This document shows, piece by piece, positions 1 to 42,000 of a stretch of DNA of 64,000 nt. A program made the position numbers. Origin of the DNA: Pecten maximus (taxonomy: Eukaryota); the NCBI RefSeq assembly GCF_902652985.1, contig NC_047025.1, forward strand, positions 27,342,001 to 27,406,000, read 5' to 3'. The stretch's first letter is position 1. Each line of letters opens with the position of its first letter.

Positions 1-3000
1 TGTTCTAATAATTCCTAGCTATGGTGATATGACAGAACGTATTCCACCTTTTCCCTCCACGACTTGAATCCTTTCTGTGACGCAGGGATCCATCATTAGA
101 AAGCTCCAAGCTTTGCTAATCAATTTGATGATACATATGTACATTATTTTAAATTTTAGGAAGCATGTACAGCACTGCTGATGGATGGGGTCGTGGGTCA
201 AAGGAGTTTTGGAATGAGGGATCAGTAAGGGTTAGGGTGTGGAGTCATTTTAAAGCTGATTTGATATACTCCGCAGTGTCTTTATTGGGAAATACTACAA
301 GGAAACGGCATTCCCATCACCTATCCACGCGTAAAGGAGGCTCAATGGACATTGACAATGGAATGATTTACGTAACGGTAAATATCTTGCTTTCATTACC
401 GTTAACTGTTTTTATTTAGTATTTGAAAAAAACAACTTCTGTTATAAAGACAGATGATTATGTTTCATTTCGTTTTGTGTAATTGACGAGTAAGGAGTAA
501 GATATATATTGTTTTAAGATTCTTTAGATGGGATTTTCAGCTCAAAAGACTCGACTTTGTTTAGTATGAAAAGGGTAGGTTCCTAAAACCATTTTTTTGT
601 AAAAGCATACCTGAATATGTCATTTCTTTTACAGTTATGAAATGCAAAAGGTCTATAGGACCCGTAATTTACTTTTTACACTACTGAACTGGGTAGGGAA
701 GTGGTGGTAGAGTGAAGTTACAAAAGTTATGTTTAAACATTCTTAGAGATATTTATGGAAAAATAGACCTTCGGACATACACTTTCTTGATAATAATAAG
801 TTAATATCACATAATACAATATACATAGGACCTGAAAAGGTTAGCGGTAACCTGCCCGACCACGCGAGTTTTCCCTGGGTAATCCGGTTTCCTCCTACAT
901 TAAGATCACTCGCACGCTTACATCCGGGCTAACAAGCGTGATTAGTATAAGTTAGTATCTAGCTACCAAAACACCCTAAGAGGACTGGCTGTGCAATTCA
1001 TTAACTATGTAATTTATTAGCTTTCTCTTTATAACTGTCTACAACAGTAAAAGCTTAATAACATATATGGTTTTAGTACCAGTTTATATTTAATGGAATT
1101 TTGTAATTTTCTGGATGCAATTAAATATAATTACCTTCTTGTGACTATATCACTGTTAGTGATTATCTCCCTTCTCACAGTTCATTATATCACAGATCTC
1201 TGATTAAATATACAATAGATATATAAATTCTGTTATCTATGTAGCGTAAGCAAACATAATTTTTTATTTACTTATTTTTATTTAATACTTGAAATTTGTT
1301 TGGTACAATGTACACATGGAGGAGACCGGTAATACCATCTATACCTATCCTTTGTTTTTGTATTACATGTAACTTCTGTTTTTCTATTGTTTTGAATGAA
1401 TGTGTGAGTGAATACTTGTTGATTATTTTATTACATACAAATCATCATTTATAGGCCTTACAGAAAGATGCTGTGCTTTTACTTCACTAAAGATTAATGC
1501 TACTTTTATGAATCTTAGCAATGCCATTGGACTATTTAGTAAATTATACCTTATATTTATGTATTGGAATGAAGTATGTGGTTCCTCTCGCCGTCTTACT
1601 CTTGTATAAATATATTTTTATACCTTCAATACTTTTCAATTATACTTGAGCATCAAAAGAGGGAGTGTAACATCTTTCTGTCAGGTCTAACCTGAAGTTT
1701 TTCTGGAAGAAGGCTTATATAGGCTTAGCCTGTTGTCTGATTCTTTTAACAATGCTGTATTTGCATGCATAAATATTTGTATGTATTATATATGTATTGT
1801 TAATAAAATATTTTGAAATTAGTATAAGTTGATATAACTTGTTTCGCAATAGTTGTAAAATAGATAAAGTTTATATTATATATATAATAGTTGGAGCAAA
1901 TTAGTATTAATTAATGTTTTATATGATAATTCAAAAGATATACCTGGTGATAGCCTTCAATGCAACATGGTTAGAAGTAGTCACTTAAATGTTTATGTTC
2001 TCCGTTAACGTAAATGATAATATTTTGTAAATGTAATAAGCAAAATTGCCGATATTTTTGTGTGATTAACTAGTTGTATGGTCTCTATTCACTAACCTAC
2101 CTAACCTACCTAAAATGAAACTGTAATACACGGAAAGGTGACCAAGTAGTATAGGATACTTGCTGTATGACAACACAAACCTACTCTGCGTTTTCCTGCT
2201 GGACACTGGCAATACTGATCTGTGATAGGGTCATCCTTGTTGTATGTATTGGATACTATCCAAAGATTGTATTTGTTCTGGGATTTGTGGCGAGAACGTA
2301 ATTTTGTATTTTTGTCACTTGATTAGGCAGTAAGGATATCTGAAGGTCACCATTATCGGTTAGGTGTATCCCGAGTCTGGCTGATTTGATGAGCGCTATA
2401 TCTGGCGGTTTCCGTATCAAGCTCTGGAAAAAAATGTTTGTACTTGTCTTCCACTAAGAATTATTCTTCAAGTCCAAAGAGAGCCTAGCTCTTCTTGCTA
2501 GTTTATAGTCTTTTGCTGCACGGGCAATAGACGGATTGTGTATAGGACCACGGATAGCATTCAGGCAGGCAGTAGTAACTCCAACAAGCTGTTCTATAAC
2601 GTATTTCAATAAAACAATAAAAAGATAACTGCTCTTTAACAATTTCCGCAGTTTAAATCCTCCGTAGTAACTTTCTACGTCTCAGCATGCTTTTGTACAA
2701 TGTCTGTTTGATATTTCTGTGTCATGCTGTTGCTAACCTGACCGCAAGAATGAAGGCATGTGTGATTCAAAATCAGATGACTTGATGAGGTCAGAAACAT
2801 CACCGATCTCTCTGTCAATAACAATGTTATCACTATTATGTAGCCATACTTTCAGGTTTGCCACAGACTAAAAATAAAAAAAGAATGAAATCTTGGCGTC
2901 CTTTCATTGCCATAAAAGAGCCCTATTGTGTCCAGAACATAACCACCTGGAAGCACAAAACTCACCAACTGTAGATAATACCGCGTTTGTTTGCCGCAAT

Positions 3001-39000: not shown

Positions 39001-42000
39001 CATTAAGTTGATTGTATTTTGCGTGTGATAATTTTATTTACTGACCTTTGCAGTATTTGTCATATATGTAATACATTTTTTTTTTTTTTTTTTTTTTTTT
39101 TTGTAATACATCAACTGTCAGTTAACCTGGTCACGTGGCAGCGAAATCTATAACAAGCCTTTATTATCTTACCTGTAAATATTACCGTACCATCACCAGA
39201 ATTATCGTGCCTATTGGGAACATACAGTTTGACTGACGTTTCATTATACTTGTAAACAACGCCTCCATACACTCCTGATTTGTCATCATCACGTTGAGAG
39301 GATCCAAGTCCGGGGAATACGAAGTTTGTGTCACTACCGCTGATTGGCCTAACTTGGATATCAACCTTGATGGGAACTTGTGTGATGTTGAGTTGTATGA
39401 TGGCCTCTGAGTGGACAGATTGTGCTTTAAGTTTGACGTAACTGCTGACGTAATTTGGCGGTTGGAGACACGTCCCACATTTTATAGTTGCGTCTGATGA
39501 TCAAAACGAAAACAGTATGGCATCATAGCGACAACACATGTAAACATCTATCGGTATCATAGCAACAATACATGTACATATATATCGGTAACATAGCAAC
39601 AGAAAATGTATACATCTATCGGTATCATAGCAACGACACATGCACACATATCTCAGCATCATAGCCACACAAAATCGGTATCATAGCAACGACATATGTA
39701 CGCGTCTATCGGTATCATAGCGACAATACATGTACACATCTATCGGTATCATCTTAGCAACACATGTACACATCTATCGGTATCATCTTAGCAACACATG
39801 TACACATCTATCGGTATCATAGCAACGACATATGTACGCGTCTATCGGTATCATAGCGACAATACATGTACACATCTATCGGTATCATCTTAGCAACACA
39901 TGTACACATCTATCGGTATCATCTTAGCAATACATGTACACATCTATCGGTAGCATAGCAACGACACATGTACACATCTATCGGTATTATAGCAACAACT
40001 CGTGTACACATCTTTTGGTATCATAGCAACAACACATTGACACATCTATTGGTATCATAGCAACAAGATATGTACACAACCATTAGTATCAAAACAACAA
40101 CGCATGTACACATCTATTAGTATCATATCGACAACACATGTACACATCTATCGGTATCATAGCAACAACACATGTCGCATCTATCAGTATCATAGCAACA
40201 GTAAATATACACGTTAACCATCATATCAACAATGAATACTACAGAAAATATACATGTTAAGACAGCCATGATGTATGTAAAATGTATTTTAAGTTAGGAG
40301 AAGGCTAACTAAGTTGTAAGAACTTGTGCCTAATCCTTTTTTTTGTCATTTTAAGGCAATGCAATATATCTAAACCAATACTACATAATCTTGATATACT
40401 ATACATATTTATTTCATTTTAGATAAGTTTCAGTGTTGTCTTACTGTCTTTTCAGTCCTCTACTTACGGCCTTTGGCGTATAGGGCAACACACATTATTA
40501 CGTAATTAAAAGTGTCAAAATTAAAGAAATGGCATAGAGATGTTGCTGATCGAAAATTAGAGAAAAAAAAAGTGCAGTTATTAATATTAGATAAATAATG
40601 GTAGTTGTTTACCTGTATGATAAATAGAGGCTATAAAGACACTGTAGAAGGCCACTTTGTCCATAATCCGAGAGCTCCTGTTGGAACAATCTGTTTCCTT
40701 GAGTTGACTAGCTTTATATCTCCTATATTGATAAACTTTCGTCCATCTACTCACCTTATGTGATAAACCCCGTCCAAATTGTCACTGTGTCTCTGTAATC
40801 TACTTCTGACTCGAGTACTGGCGATTGGTGATAACATTGTCATCAGAAATGTCATTCTACTTTAACCCCGTTTTTATTGGAAGTCGTGAGCCATCTACTG
40901 TATAGTAGTTATATGTGATATTTAATATTGCTGATTTATCTAGGAGATTACTGGCCTGATTTATTGAAAATATTTCATCTCATTTTCAATTTTTTAACAC
41001 ATGTTAAACTCACTCAGTCTATAAAACATGGTAATATCATAATACATTGCCTACTGGAAGTTTAGACATAATGCTGAGGATTAAGTTAGTCCGACGGCAT
41101 GCATAGTTTTTGTATGACATGTAGTTTCGCAAAAGAAATGGGGATATGAATCAAAAAGAGGAAGCAAACGACAAACACCTGACTTTTAGTTCAAAACCTC
41201 CCCAGTACCTTACTAGAACTACAATCGTGAAAATGATATTAAGTAATCGTAAAAATAAAGATTATGTCAGAAAACATGCATTATGGCGTTTCAGTAATAT
41301 CCCATTGCCTTAATTCACATTAGAATGTATCAATTTCAAAGCCGTTACACTCAATCAATTTATTTTCACACGATTTCGTTTAATTATCCATACATGTACG
41401 TGAGTTTAAGTTAACACCCCAGAGTTAAGAGGAAACCCTCTGAAATAACATCATCAATGTGTGTTTCAGCATTGAATGTCGAGATAACTACTGTAGTTTA
41501 AAACCTACCAAAATAGAAACTAAACAGGAAGGATGTATCCTTACAGAGAGTCCTACATGTCATTGGAACGTAAATTACATTAATTAATTCGACGTTCATA
41601 CTATAGCAGTTTGTTTAAAGGGTATTTAAGGCGAGCATTATTTATAACTTAGTTACATTTTTGTTTTTTATATGATTAGCATTTAGCCTAATTAACCCAG
41701 CTGTACAACTGGGACTTGTCACTACGCTCGTAAGTAGTCCTCTCTTTACTTACAGTCATCGTAAGGACTGTCTGTCTAACTAATTGTATATGGAGTCTCA
41801 CTATGAAATTCTCATGAAAACTTTTGATAGGAAACAAAATATCCCAATTCATTTTAAAGATATATGTTTTTGCAAAGTCGCGACGGCAAAATCGAGAAAG
41901 TAATTTCGTGTGTTCGCCATCGCGTATACGACATAAACGTCTGGCTAAAGGAGCCTCTGTCAGTCGGCATGGGAAATATACGGTAGGGAAATAGTCGATT

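What the first reader, a model, noticed from the sequence alone, without database searches (positions are those of the whole stretch)
160..40664. Mirror-image gene order: inverted duplication of a [membrane protein + ApoD lipocalin] module
Seen: the order is A(+) ApoD1(-) | ApoD2(+) ECI(+) B(-). A and B are paralogs with matching exon boundaries, the two ApoDs are paralogs with identical intron phases, and each receptor-like gene converges on an ApoD gene. Inference: one old inverted segmental duplication centred between 12.2 and 15.4 kb, with ECI gained or lost on one arm. Retaining both pairs raises the speculative possibility that a secreted lipocalin and an orphan surface protein are functionally linked (e.g. 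ligand carrier and uptake partner).
Basis: partly seen in the sequence, partly recalled or inferred. Interest (0 to 1): 0.65.

Follow-up and report, generated by a model that had tools for sequence, protein, structure and literature searches.

The report
Ancient mirrored gene pairs in scallop
In king scallop DNA, two old copies of a lipocalin gene sit head to head, each flanked by an old copy of an uncharacterised surface-protein gene; this is most simply the relic of one very old inverted duplication, and nothing yet shows that the two proteins work together.

Summary
The window is Pecten maximus DNA (100% matches to its RefSeq proteins). The gene order is A(+) ApoD1(-) | ApoD2(+) ECI-like(+) B(-). 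All splice sites and intron phases were checked.

- **ApoD pair:** 68.5% identical, intron phases 0/2/1 in both.
- **A and B:** about 42-50% identical type I membrane proteins. Each has three homologous ~120-aa repeats with no Pfam or PDB relative. The five comparable junctions have the same phases. Only residues 240-527 of A lie in the window.
- **Age:** both duplications predate the split of Pecten, Argopecten, Ylistrum and Mizuhopecten. The A/B split also postdates the oyster, mussel and ark-shell lineages.
- **dS test:** uninformative. Synonymous sites are saturated in both pairs.
- **Relative age:** paralog/ortholog distance ratios overlap, ApoD 3.84 versus A/B 2.83, ratio of ratios 1.43 (0.90-2.01).

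One inverted duplication is the simplest reading, but two separate events are not excluded. Orthologs share scaffolds in three other scallops; their gene order could not be read. No evidence bears on a lipocalin-receptor link. Co-folding and structure prediction never returned a result. Modest interest.

The parts
160..9249 (+). Gene A, 3' part (residues 240-527 of RefSeq LOC117338115). It covers the end of repeat 2, repeat 3, the S/T/P-rich stalk, the TM exon and a short tail. The 5' exons lie outside the window.
   Evidence: CDS exons 160-377, 4347-4602, 5002-5082, 6406-6489, 7348-7413, 7647-7685, 8801-8904, 9232-9246 plus stop; all AG/GT. 100% tblastn match to P0005/P0013. Exon-wise search hit P0005 at 100%. 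TM-like segment at residue 481.
10544..12185 (-). ApoD1: ApoD-like lipocalin, 184 codons, 4 CDS exons, intron phases 0/2/1.
   Evidence: Exons 12185-12072, 11517-11393, 11030-10939, 10767-10547. Identical to P0017, XP_033755210.1. Pfam Lipocalin 28.6 bits on exon 4. Best solved relative is ApoD 2hzq, E 1.2e-36.
12186..15384 (.). Centre of symmetry: a 3,199-nt divergent spacer between the two ApoD start codons. It holds a 16-nt minisatellite at 14032-14593.
   Evidence: Start codons; minisatellite. No significant similarity between the two upstream 800-nt stretches (9 of 200 shuffles reach the score). No inverted non-coding arms.
15385..17690 (+). ApoD2: ApoD-like lipocalin, 185 codons, 4 CDS exons, intron phases 0/2/1.
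   Evidence: Exons 15385-15498, 16544-16668, 17059-17153, 17467-17687. Identical to P0008, XP_033755603.1. Pfam Lipocalin 32.0 bits on exon 4.
21693..23931 (+). ECI-like gene: crotonase-fold (enoyl-CoA hydratase/isomerase family) protein, 233 codons, 4 exons, C-terminal SKL. It is present on the right arm only.
   Evidence: Exons 21693-21826, 22515-22693, 22979-23114, 23679-23928. Pfam ECH_1 33.0 bits (cut-off 27) on exon 2. Exons 2 and 3 hit NCBIfam NF004858 collinearly, below cut-off. PDB 4kpk, E 6.4e-6. No ECI-like ORF elsewhere in the window.
29644..40664 (-). Gene B: full-length paralog of A, 694 codons by exon sum. It has a signal-like N-terminus, three ~120-aa repeats, an S/T/P stalk, a TM segment and a long cytoplasmic tail.
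   Evidence: Eleven exons listed in the observation check. RefSeq P0001 (XP_033755388.1, 'mucin-19-like') covers e5-e11 at 97-100%. e1-e4 are supported by Argopecten B (P0011) at 77-83% and by P0004. GC donor at e3.
30847..31745 (-). 39-nt minisatellite in B intron 10, a tandem copy of the exon-end plus splice donor. It is not part of the annotated protein.
   Evidence: TRF. 13 sites matching AG|GTA[AC]GA, all in phase 0 with the annotated donor; the frame stays open to a stop at 30829. RefSeq and orthologs splice from the first donor.

Best explanation
The window is Pecten maximus DNA. My best reading is a single inverted duplication in the scallop stem lineage.

The duplicated unit was a convergent two-gene module: a type I surface glycoprotein with three ~120-aa repeats pointing towards an ApoD-like secreted lipocalin. 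The duplication happened after the split from the sampled oyster, mussel and ark-shell lineages, and before Pecten, Argopecten, Ylistrum and Mizuhopecten diverged. It gave A-> <-ApoD1 | ApoD2-> <-B.

All four genes were then kept under purifying selection and diverged:
- The two lipocalins carry 17 fixed paralog-specific residues and different codon usage.
- A kept a short cytoplasmic tail. B has a long tail with an invariant C-terminal motif.

The crotonase-family (ECI-like) gene, transposon fragments and minisatellites entered the right arm later, or ECI was lost from the left arm.

Shown: gene order, paralogy, identical phases, 1:1 orthologs in other scallops, and saturation of silent sites.
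Inferred: that the two duplications were one event; the direction of the ECI change; and sub- or neofunctionalisation.

The likeliest roles are these. The lipocalins are secreted carriers of small hydrophobic ligands, judged by family. A and B are cell-surface recognition or adhesion proteins, because the same three-repeat module occurs in cadherin-, EGF-, TSP1- and PAN-containing mosaic proteins of other animals.
For: - **Species and genes:** 100% exon-wise matches to P. maximus RefSeq proteins.
- **Mirror order** with validated exon models.
- **ApoD pair:** 68.5% identity over 184 columns. Both have four CDS exons with phases 0/2/1. All four Cys align with ApoD 2hzq.
- **A/B:** collinear from signal peptide to TM, 42% over 571 aligned positions, E 6e-150, for the two full-length Argopecten proteins. 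Phases are the same at five junctions.
- **ApoD tree:** two clades of four species each, both 100/100.
- **A/B tree:** scallop A (3 species) is sister to scallop B (4 species) at 100/99. Crassostrea, Saccostrea, Mytilus and Tegillarca lie outside.
- **Silent sites saturated in both pairs:** ApoD pS 0.91, p4 0.76; A/B pS 0.77, p4 0.64.
- **No non-coding similarity between the arms**.
- **Relative age overlaps:** Kimura ratio 3.01 (2.29-4.15) versus 2.43 (2.02-3.00), difference -0.30..1.76. ML ratio 3.84 (2.79-5.45) versus 2.83 (2.36-3.38).
- **Shared records in relatives:** all four orthologs lie on a record of the same length in Ylistrum balloti (4,061,834 bp) and in Argopecten (73,140,430 bp). 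B and both ApoDs do so in Mizuhopecten (1,166,382 bp), where the two ApoDs have consecutive GenBank ids OWF55135/OWF55136.
- **Purifying selection with stable differences:** ApoD has 109 of 184 columns invariant and 17 fixed-different. A/B has 63 of 187 invariant and 22 fixed-different.
Against: - Nothing ties the two duplications to one event except geometry and overlapping, wide age estimates.
- The ML ratio of ratios is 1.43 (0.90-2.01), leaning towards an older or faster-diverging ApoD split.
- I have no non-scallop lipocalin, so the ApoD duplication has no lower bound and its tree is rooted only at the midpoint.
- The ECI-like gene interrupts the right arm.
- A perfect mirror arises 1 time in 12 by chance for four linked genes (my enumeration).
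- The A/B family duplicates locally anyway: a third paralog, P0031, sits on the same Argopecten chromosome.
- Gene order and orientation in the other scallops were not readable. Equal contig length is only an indirect sign that genes share a record.
- No Mizuhopecten ortholog of A was returned (0 among the 3 hits).
Confidence: 0.55

Rival explanations
1. There were two independent local duplications at different times. An inverted tandem duplication of the lipocalin gene made the head-to-head ApoD pair. A separate inverted duplication or transposition of the membrane-protein gene landed on the far side. On this reading the mirror order is a coincidence of two common events.
For: - Relative-age ratios differ in point estimate: 3.84 versus 2.83, ratio 1.43, 95% 0.90-2.01.
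- The ECI-like gene sits between ApoD2 and B.
- A third A/B-family paralog lies on the same Argopecten chromosome, so the family duplicates locally.
- Lipocalin genes commonly form local arrays (established knowledge, recalled).
- Chance of a mirror given four linked genes is 1/12 (my enumeration).
Against: - It needs two events with the right placement and orientation.
- Both duplications fall before the scallop radiation.
- The age intervals overlap.
Confidence: 0.33
2. The lipocalin and the neighbouring surface protein are a working pair, a ligand carrier and its docking or uptake partner, and selection has kept both pairs linked since the duplication. It is compatible with either origin.
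For: - All four genes are retained as 1:1 orthologs on shared records in four scallop genera.
- Both lipocalin clades and both membrane-protein clades keep fixed paralog-specific residues. This would fit co-diverged pairs.
- The receptor of ApoD-type lipocalins is still unsettled in chordates (PMC8530192, passages read).
Against: - No call tests binding or co-expression.
- Convergent genes do not share a promoter.
- B is separated from ApoD2 by another gene.
- Linkage within one family of slowly rearranging genomes (recalled) is expected without selection.
- Only 11 of 59 mid-length family representatives have a C-terminal hydrophobic anchor by a crude scan, so the module is not generally a receptor.
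Confidence: 0.08
3. The arrangement is an assembly artefact: a falsely inverted haplotype copy or a collapsed repeat.
For: None found. The idea is raised only because inverted duplicates can be assembly errors.
Against: - The copies differ at 31% (ApoD) to about 50% (A/B) of residues, with saturated silent sites.
- Each copy has its own ortholog in three other assemblies.
- The window has no N.
Confidence: 0.01

Closest known systems
Chordate apolipoprotein D and related arthropod lipocalins
   Same: - Signal peptide, an eight-strand lipocalin signature and four aligned cysteines. The best solved match is ApoD 2hzq, E 1.2e-36 over residues 20-184.
- Four CDS exons, as in chordate ApoD (PMC8530192, passage read).
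   Different: - The review calls ApoD a chordate gene (PMC8530192 abstract), so the scallop genes are ApoD-like, not shown orthologs.
- They occur here as a conserved head-to-head pair with 17 fixed differences.
Proposed lipocalin membrane partners (ApoD with basigin or SRB1)
   Different: - A and B have no Ig domains and no Pfam family at all.
- The chordate partners are themselves unproven: the review says no clear demonstration exists (PMC8530192, passage), and another paper reports basigin-independent binding (PMC9167181, title and abstract in a search listing).
- As far as I recall, those partners are not genomic neighbours of ApoD.
Inverted segmental duplications and local lipocalin gene arrays
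   Same: Mirror order, opposite strands, and paralogs with conserved intron phases.
   Different: - The duplication is so old that only exons still align: 75% and 70% at DNA level, for two ApoD exons only.
- One arm carries an extra gene.
Membrane-tethered mucins (the RefSeq names 'mucin-19-like' and 'mucin-5AC-like')
   Same: An S/T/P-rich stalk (42% S+T+P over 90 residues in A) precedes a TM segment.
   Different: - There are no mucin tandem-repeat arrays and no VWD or SEA domains.
- The bulk of the ectodomain is three folded repeats.
- The name reflects composition only.
H-type lectin / Gp53-like_C fold
   Same: This is the only named neighbour in the language-model search: score 0.76 for the whole ectodomain and 0.76 for one repeat.
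   Different: - The score is below the tool's 0.9 level, so this is a lead only.
- 0 of 35 and 0 of 26 family members match Pfam H_lectin, even at E 5-10.
- No PDB hit at E 10 and no phage tblastn hit.
- The fold was not tested because no structure model was obtained.

Membership tests
Lipocalin (ApoD-like) | Pfam lipocalin profile above the gathering score | tested here: met
   Exon 4 alone scores 28.6 bits (ApoD1) and 32.0 bits (ApoD2) against a cut-off of 23. PF00061 and PF08212 are precomputed on P0008, P0009 and P0010.
Lipocalin (ApoD-like) | Conserved lipocalin motifs (G-x-W near the N-terminus, T-D-Y, and a later R) and two disulfides | tested here: met
   G-x-W-Y, T-D-Y-T-S-Y and S-R are invariant in 8 of 8 scallop sequences. 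All four Cys align with Cys of ApoD 2hzq. The motif definitions themselves are recalled.
Lipocalin (ApoD-like) | Orthology to chordate ApoD | not tested
   Only a best PDB hit is available.
Crotonase / enoyl-CoA hydratase-isomerase superfamily (the 'ECI' gene) | ECH_1 profile above the gathering score | tested here: met
   Exon 2 scores 33.0 bits against a cut-off of 27. Exon 4 scores 15.9 bits, below cut-off. There are collinear sub-threshold NCBIfam hits and PDB 4kpk at E 6.4e-6.
Delta3,Delta2-enoyl-CoA isomerase specifically | Isomerase-type catalytic residues or isomerase-clade placement | not tested
   Exon-wise searches give only family-level hits. Exons 3 and 4 give no PDB hit at E 0.01. 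The C-terminal SKL suggests a peroxisomal location, by recalled knowledge of PTS1.
Unnamed metazoan three-repeat ectodomain family (A and B) | Three tandem homologous ~120-aa repeats | tested here: met
   hhalign between the repeats gives 99.9% probability, with E from 3e-37 to 8e-35. Most of the 150 listed representatives match in 3 stretches.
Unnamed metazoan three-repeat ectodomain family (A and B) | Relatives beyond scallops | tested here: met
   175 representatives at E<=1e-3 and 47 at E<=1e-10. 14 of the 20 clusters looked up carry names, and all 14 are animals: sponges, cnidarians, bivalves and hemichordates. All are called uncharacterised or hypothetical except one 'Multiple epidermal growth...' record.
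H-type lectin | Match to the PF09458 profile or to a solved H-type lectin | tested here: not met
   0 of 35 members (E<=5) and 0 of 26 single-repeat sequences (E<=10) match. No PDB sequence hit was found. A fold comparison was not possible.
Single inverted segmental duplication | Mirror order and opposite orientation of both paralog pairs | tested here: met
Single inverted segmental duplication | Equal age of the two paralog pairs | tested here: inconclusive
   dS is saturated in both pairs. Relative-age ratios overlap but have wide intervals.
Single inverted segmental duplication | Similarity of non-coding arms | tested here: not met
   No such similarity was found. This is expected at this age, so it is not held against the model.
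Single inverted segmental duplication | Same mirror order in related genomes and a single module in outgroups | not testable with these tools
   No eukaryotic genome collection was on hand. Only shared contig lengths and neighbouring accession numbers are available.

The most novel reading that the evidence does not exclude
The ApoD-like lipocalin and the three-repeat surface protein form a carrier-and-docking pair that was duplicated as a unit. The two pairs (A with ApoD1, B with ApoD2) then co-diverged and stayed linked across the scallop radiation. If so, the unnamed three-repeat module, found from sponges to hemichordates, would be a new kind of lipocalin-binding or ligand-uptake ectodomain. 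It would also be a candidate answer to the unsettled question of how ApoD-type lipocalins dock on cells.
Probability: 0.07. Interest if true: 0.75.

Novelty: new member of a known kind. Interest (0 to 1): 0.33.

Why it matters
As it stands, this is a clean, well-dated example of an ancient inverted duplication of a two-gene block in a mollusc.

It has three useful by-products:
- It corrects the RefSeq model of B, which lacks four intact 5' exons.
- It shows that 'mucin-19-like' is a misnomer for a member of an unnamed animal-wide three-repeat ectodomain family with no Pfam or PDB relative.
- It gives two conserved, distinct ApoD-like lipocalins for ligand studies in scallops.

It would matter more if the lipocalin and the surface protein proved to interact, because no receptor for ApoD-type lipocalins is firmly established (PMC8530192, passage read).

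Tried and rejected
I computed it exon by exon with pooled counts. Both pairs are saturated (pS 0.91 and 0.77), so it cannot rank the ages. The ApoD value above 0.75 is explained by different GC3, 0.43 versus 0.57.
2. **Co-folding of ApoD1 with the A ectodomain (complex prediction).** There was no usable answer. The cap was reported as used. No result was ever returned, so binding stays untested.
3. **Structure prediction of the three-repeat ectodomain.** The one accepted job failed. 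No model and no fold search resulted.
4. **Sequence routes to a fold or family for A/B.** All were negative.
   - Pfam.
   - PDB profile searches: one search gave two hits at E 0.056-0.059 over 43 residues, taken as chance; one search gave none at E 10.
   - PHROGs: no family matched by more than 1 of 26 members.
   - Phage tblastn.
5. **H-type lectin lead**. No sequence test supports it.
6. **A scan of prokaryote genomes with alignment A1.** It could not be run because no stretch was conserved enough. I did not pursue it.
7. **My first reading of B's 3' end** as a 371-codon tail of 13-aa repeats. I rejected it because RefSeq and the orthologs splice at the first donor to the exon at 29988-29647.
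8. **My first guesses for the e3 donor of B** (GT sites at phase 0 or earlier). I rejected them in favour of a GC donor that matches the orthologs' reading.
9. **Literature.** No paper was found for the locus or accession ids, for 'apolipoprotein D' plus 'Pecten maximus', or for 'apolipoprotein D-like' plus 'scallop' (1 irrelevant hit). One search was too broad to be useful.
10. **Absolute dates.** The Argopecten genome paper gives no scallop crown age in the passages I read (PMC11439060), so I give no dates in years.

Full report
**Scope and method.** The window has 64,000 bases, no N and about 35% G+C, with many minisatellites. I never assembled window exons into one protein, in a tool or in a script. 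Where whole proteins were needed, I used the database records that the exon-wise searches returned, by their ids.

**What is there.**
  - Two A exons match two B exons: 41% over 80 aa at 9e-19, and 46% over 97 aa at 7e-28.
  - Four ApoD1 exons match four ApoD2 exons at 57, 64, 66 and 78% identity.
- Exon-wise homolog searches give 100% matches to Pecten maximus RefSeq proteins:
  - A is LOC117338115 (XP_033755207-209).
  - ApoD1 is XP_033755210.1.
  - ApoD2 is XP_033755603.1.
  - B is XP_033755388.1, named 'mucin-19-like'.
- I read every splice junction and checked them together. All acceptors are AG. All donors are GT except one GC donor in B. Exon lengths sum to whole codons: ApoD1 552 nt, ApoD2 555, ECI-like 699, B 2082, and A 863 plus 1 for its in-window part.
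- The order is A(+) 160-9249, ApoD1(-) 10544-12185, ApoD2(+) 15385-17690, ECI-like(+) 21693-23931, B(-) 29644-40664.

- Both ApoD genes have four CDS exons with intron phases 0, 2, 1.
- A and B share phases at all five junctions that can be compared.
- Only residues 240-527 of A are in the window, so the 5' half could not be compared.
- A has four short stalk exons and B has two. A ends in a 15-nt last exon and B in a 342-nt one.
- A and ApoD1 converge, with 1,294 nt between their stop codons.
- B converges on the ECI-like gene (5,712 nt between stops), not directly on ApoD2.
- The two ApoD start codons are 3,199 nt apart.

**What the genes are.**
- *ApoD1 and ApoD2* are lipocalins.
  - Pfam scores 28.6 and 32.0 bits on the last exon alone.
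  - The best solved relative is ApoD 2hzq at E 1.2e-36, with all four cysteines aligned.
  - A review calls ApoD a chordate gene with four CDS exons (PMC8530192, abstract and passages). I therefore call these ApoD-like.
- *The ECI-like gene* is a 233-codon crotonase-family protein ending in SKL. Whether it is an isomerase or a hydratase was not testable exon by exon.
- *A and B* have no Pfam family and no PDB relative by sequence.
  - Each has a hydrophobic N-terminus.
  - Each has three mutually homologous repeats of about 120 aa (hhalign 99.9%, E 3e-37 to 8e-35).
  - Each has an S/T/P-rich stalk and one TM segment.
  - The two full-length Argopecten proteins align collinearly: 42% over 571 positions, E 6e-150.
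- *The repeat module is animal-wide.*
  - 175 representatives match at E<=1e-3, mostly in three stretches.
  - 14 of the 20 clusters looked up carry names, and all 14 are from sponges, cnidarians, bivalves or hemichordates. All are called uncharacterised or hypothetical except one 'Multiple epidermal growth...' record.
  - In other members the module is joined to EGF, laminin-EGF, cadherin, TIG, TSP1, PAN, Sushi, VWD or D8C domains. That points to an extracellular recognition or adhesion role.
  - A language-model search gives only a weak lead to H-type lectins (0.76). No sequence test supports it.
  - No structure model could be obtained.

**Age and number of events.**
  - ApoD: pS 0.91, four-fold sites 0.76.
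  - A/B: pS 0.77, four-fold sites 0.64.
- No non-coding similarity links the arms.
- Each of the four genes has its own ortholog in other scallops.
- The ApoD tree has two clades of four species each, both at 100/100.
- In a 37-protein tree, scallop A (3 species) and scallop B (4 species) are sisters at 100/99. Oyster, mussel and ark-shell proteins lie outside. Both duplications therefore predate the scallop radiation, and the A/B one postdates the split from those other bivalves.
- I used the paralog-to-ortholog distance ratio in the same three species as a clock-free yardstick.
  - Kimura distances: ApoD 3.01 (2.29-4.15), A/B 2.43 (2.02-3.00).
  - ML distances: ApoD 3.84 (2.79-5.45), A/B 2.83 (2.36-3.38). 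The ratio of ratios is 1.43 (0.90-2.01).
- The ages are comparable within a factor of two. That fits one event but does not prove it.
- A perfect mirror of four linked genes arises by chance 1 time in 12 (my enumeration).

**Linkage in relatives.**
- The orthologs of all four genes sit on a record of the same length in Ylistrum (4.06 Mb) and in Argopecten (73 Mb).
- B and both ApoDs do so in Mizuhopecten (1.17 Mb), where the two ApoDs have consecutive GenBank ids.
- In Argopecten, A, ApoD1 and B have consecutive RefSeq numbers.
- These are hints of conserved clustering. I could not read order or strand, because no eukaryotic genome collection was on hand.
- No Mizuhopecten ortholog of A was returned.

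**After the duplication.**
- Both lipocalin clades are strongly conserved: 109 of 184 columns are invariant. There are also 17 fixed paralog-specific residues, one of them inside the G-x-W motif.
- GC3 differs between the copies, 0.43 versus 0.57.
- A and B share 63 of 187 invariant columns and have 22 fixed differences.
- Their tails differ. A's tail is about 15 residues and poorly conserved. B's is over 100 residues, with an invariant last eight residues in 3 of 3 species and a conserved TM and juxtamembrane stretch.
- This fits retention with divergence of function.

**Functional link.** No call bears on binding or co-expression, and the co-fold job never returned a result (see Tried and rejected). 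Convergent genes have separate promoters at opposite ends. The only shared upstream region is the one between the two lipocalin genes.

**Verdict.** Two separate events remain plausible (0.33). The carrier-receptor idea is untested (about 0.07).

Supplementary files of the cited papers were closed. I do not expect them to bear on these claims.

Noticed in passing
window 30847-31745 (- strand), B intron 10: A 39-nt minisatellite copies the end of the TM exon together with its splice donor. There are 13 sites matching AG|GTA[AC]GA, all in phase 0 with the annotated donor, and the frame stays open to a stop at 30829. Use of a later donor would add 13-aa units to B's tail in frame.
   Followed up: partly
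window 36948-40664 (- strand): The RefSeq model of B (XP_033755388.1, 487 aa) starts at a Met in exon 5. The window holds four intact upstream exons with good splice sites. They are 77-83% identical to full-length Argopecten B. By exon sum the gene encodes 694 codons.
   Followed up: yes
window 38452-38453 (- strand): B exon 3 appears to use a GC-AG intron (donor GCAAGT). This is inferred from how the orthologs read across the junction.
   Followed up: partly
window 29683-29878 (- strand), last exon of B: A 21-nt coding repeat gives eight copies of a 7-aa unit in P. maximus. Argopecten and Ylistrum have one or two copies at the same place. This is a species-specific expansion in the cytoplasmic tail.
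   Followed up: partly
window 6403-6409 and 8799-8873 (+ strand), gene A: RefSeq isoforms X1 and X2 of A differ by one residue at a CAGCAG tandem acceptor. Isoform X3 (P0012) reads the TM exon in another frame and has no TM-like segment, so it may be a secreted form.
   Followed up: no
window 10547-12185 versus 15385-17687: The two ApoD copies differ at synonymous sites more than random expectation (pS 0.91). This goes with different third-position G+C, 0.43 versus 0.57, and may reflect different expression levels.
   Followed up: partly
window 58656-59540 (+ strand): A long open exon has a tyrosinase central domain (Pfam PF00264, E 9.5e-19), so a tyrosinase gene lies downstream of B. Beyond it are strongly G-skewed 25-nt satellites at 60091-60928 and 62093-63124.
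   Followed up: no
window 2113-2322(-), 7900-8118(+), 18943-19134(-), 25076-25351(-): These look like transposon-derived fragments in introns and spacers. One has a SWIM finger (E 0.006) and one DUF3504 (E 3.7e-4), both below the Pfam cut-offs. The stretches that looked mariner-like and reverse-transcriptase-like by eye had no Pfam hit; those two labels are recalled only.
   Followed up: partly
window 20044-20157 and 57564-57648: A short palindromic element of about 43 nt occurs at two places, 80-100% alike. It is probably a MITE-like repeat.
   Followed up: no
window 14032-14593, 26632-28475, 32053-32876, 39522-40200: Large minisatellites lie in this locus. A 16-nt unit with 35 copies sits between the ApoD starts. 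A 22-nt unit with 84 copies sits between the ECI-like gene and B. A 13-nt unit and a 34/68-nt unit lie in B introns.
   Followed up: no
Argopecten irradians protein P0031 (XP_069114437.1): This is a third scallop paralog of A and B. It lies outside the A+B clade and is on the same 73-Mb chromosome record. No counterpart is in this window.
   Followed up: partly
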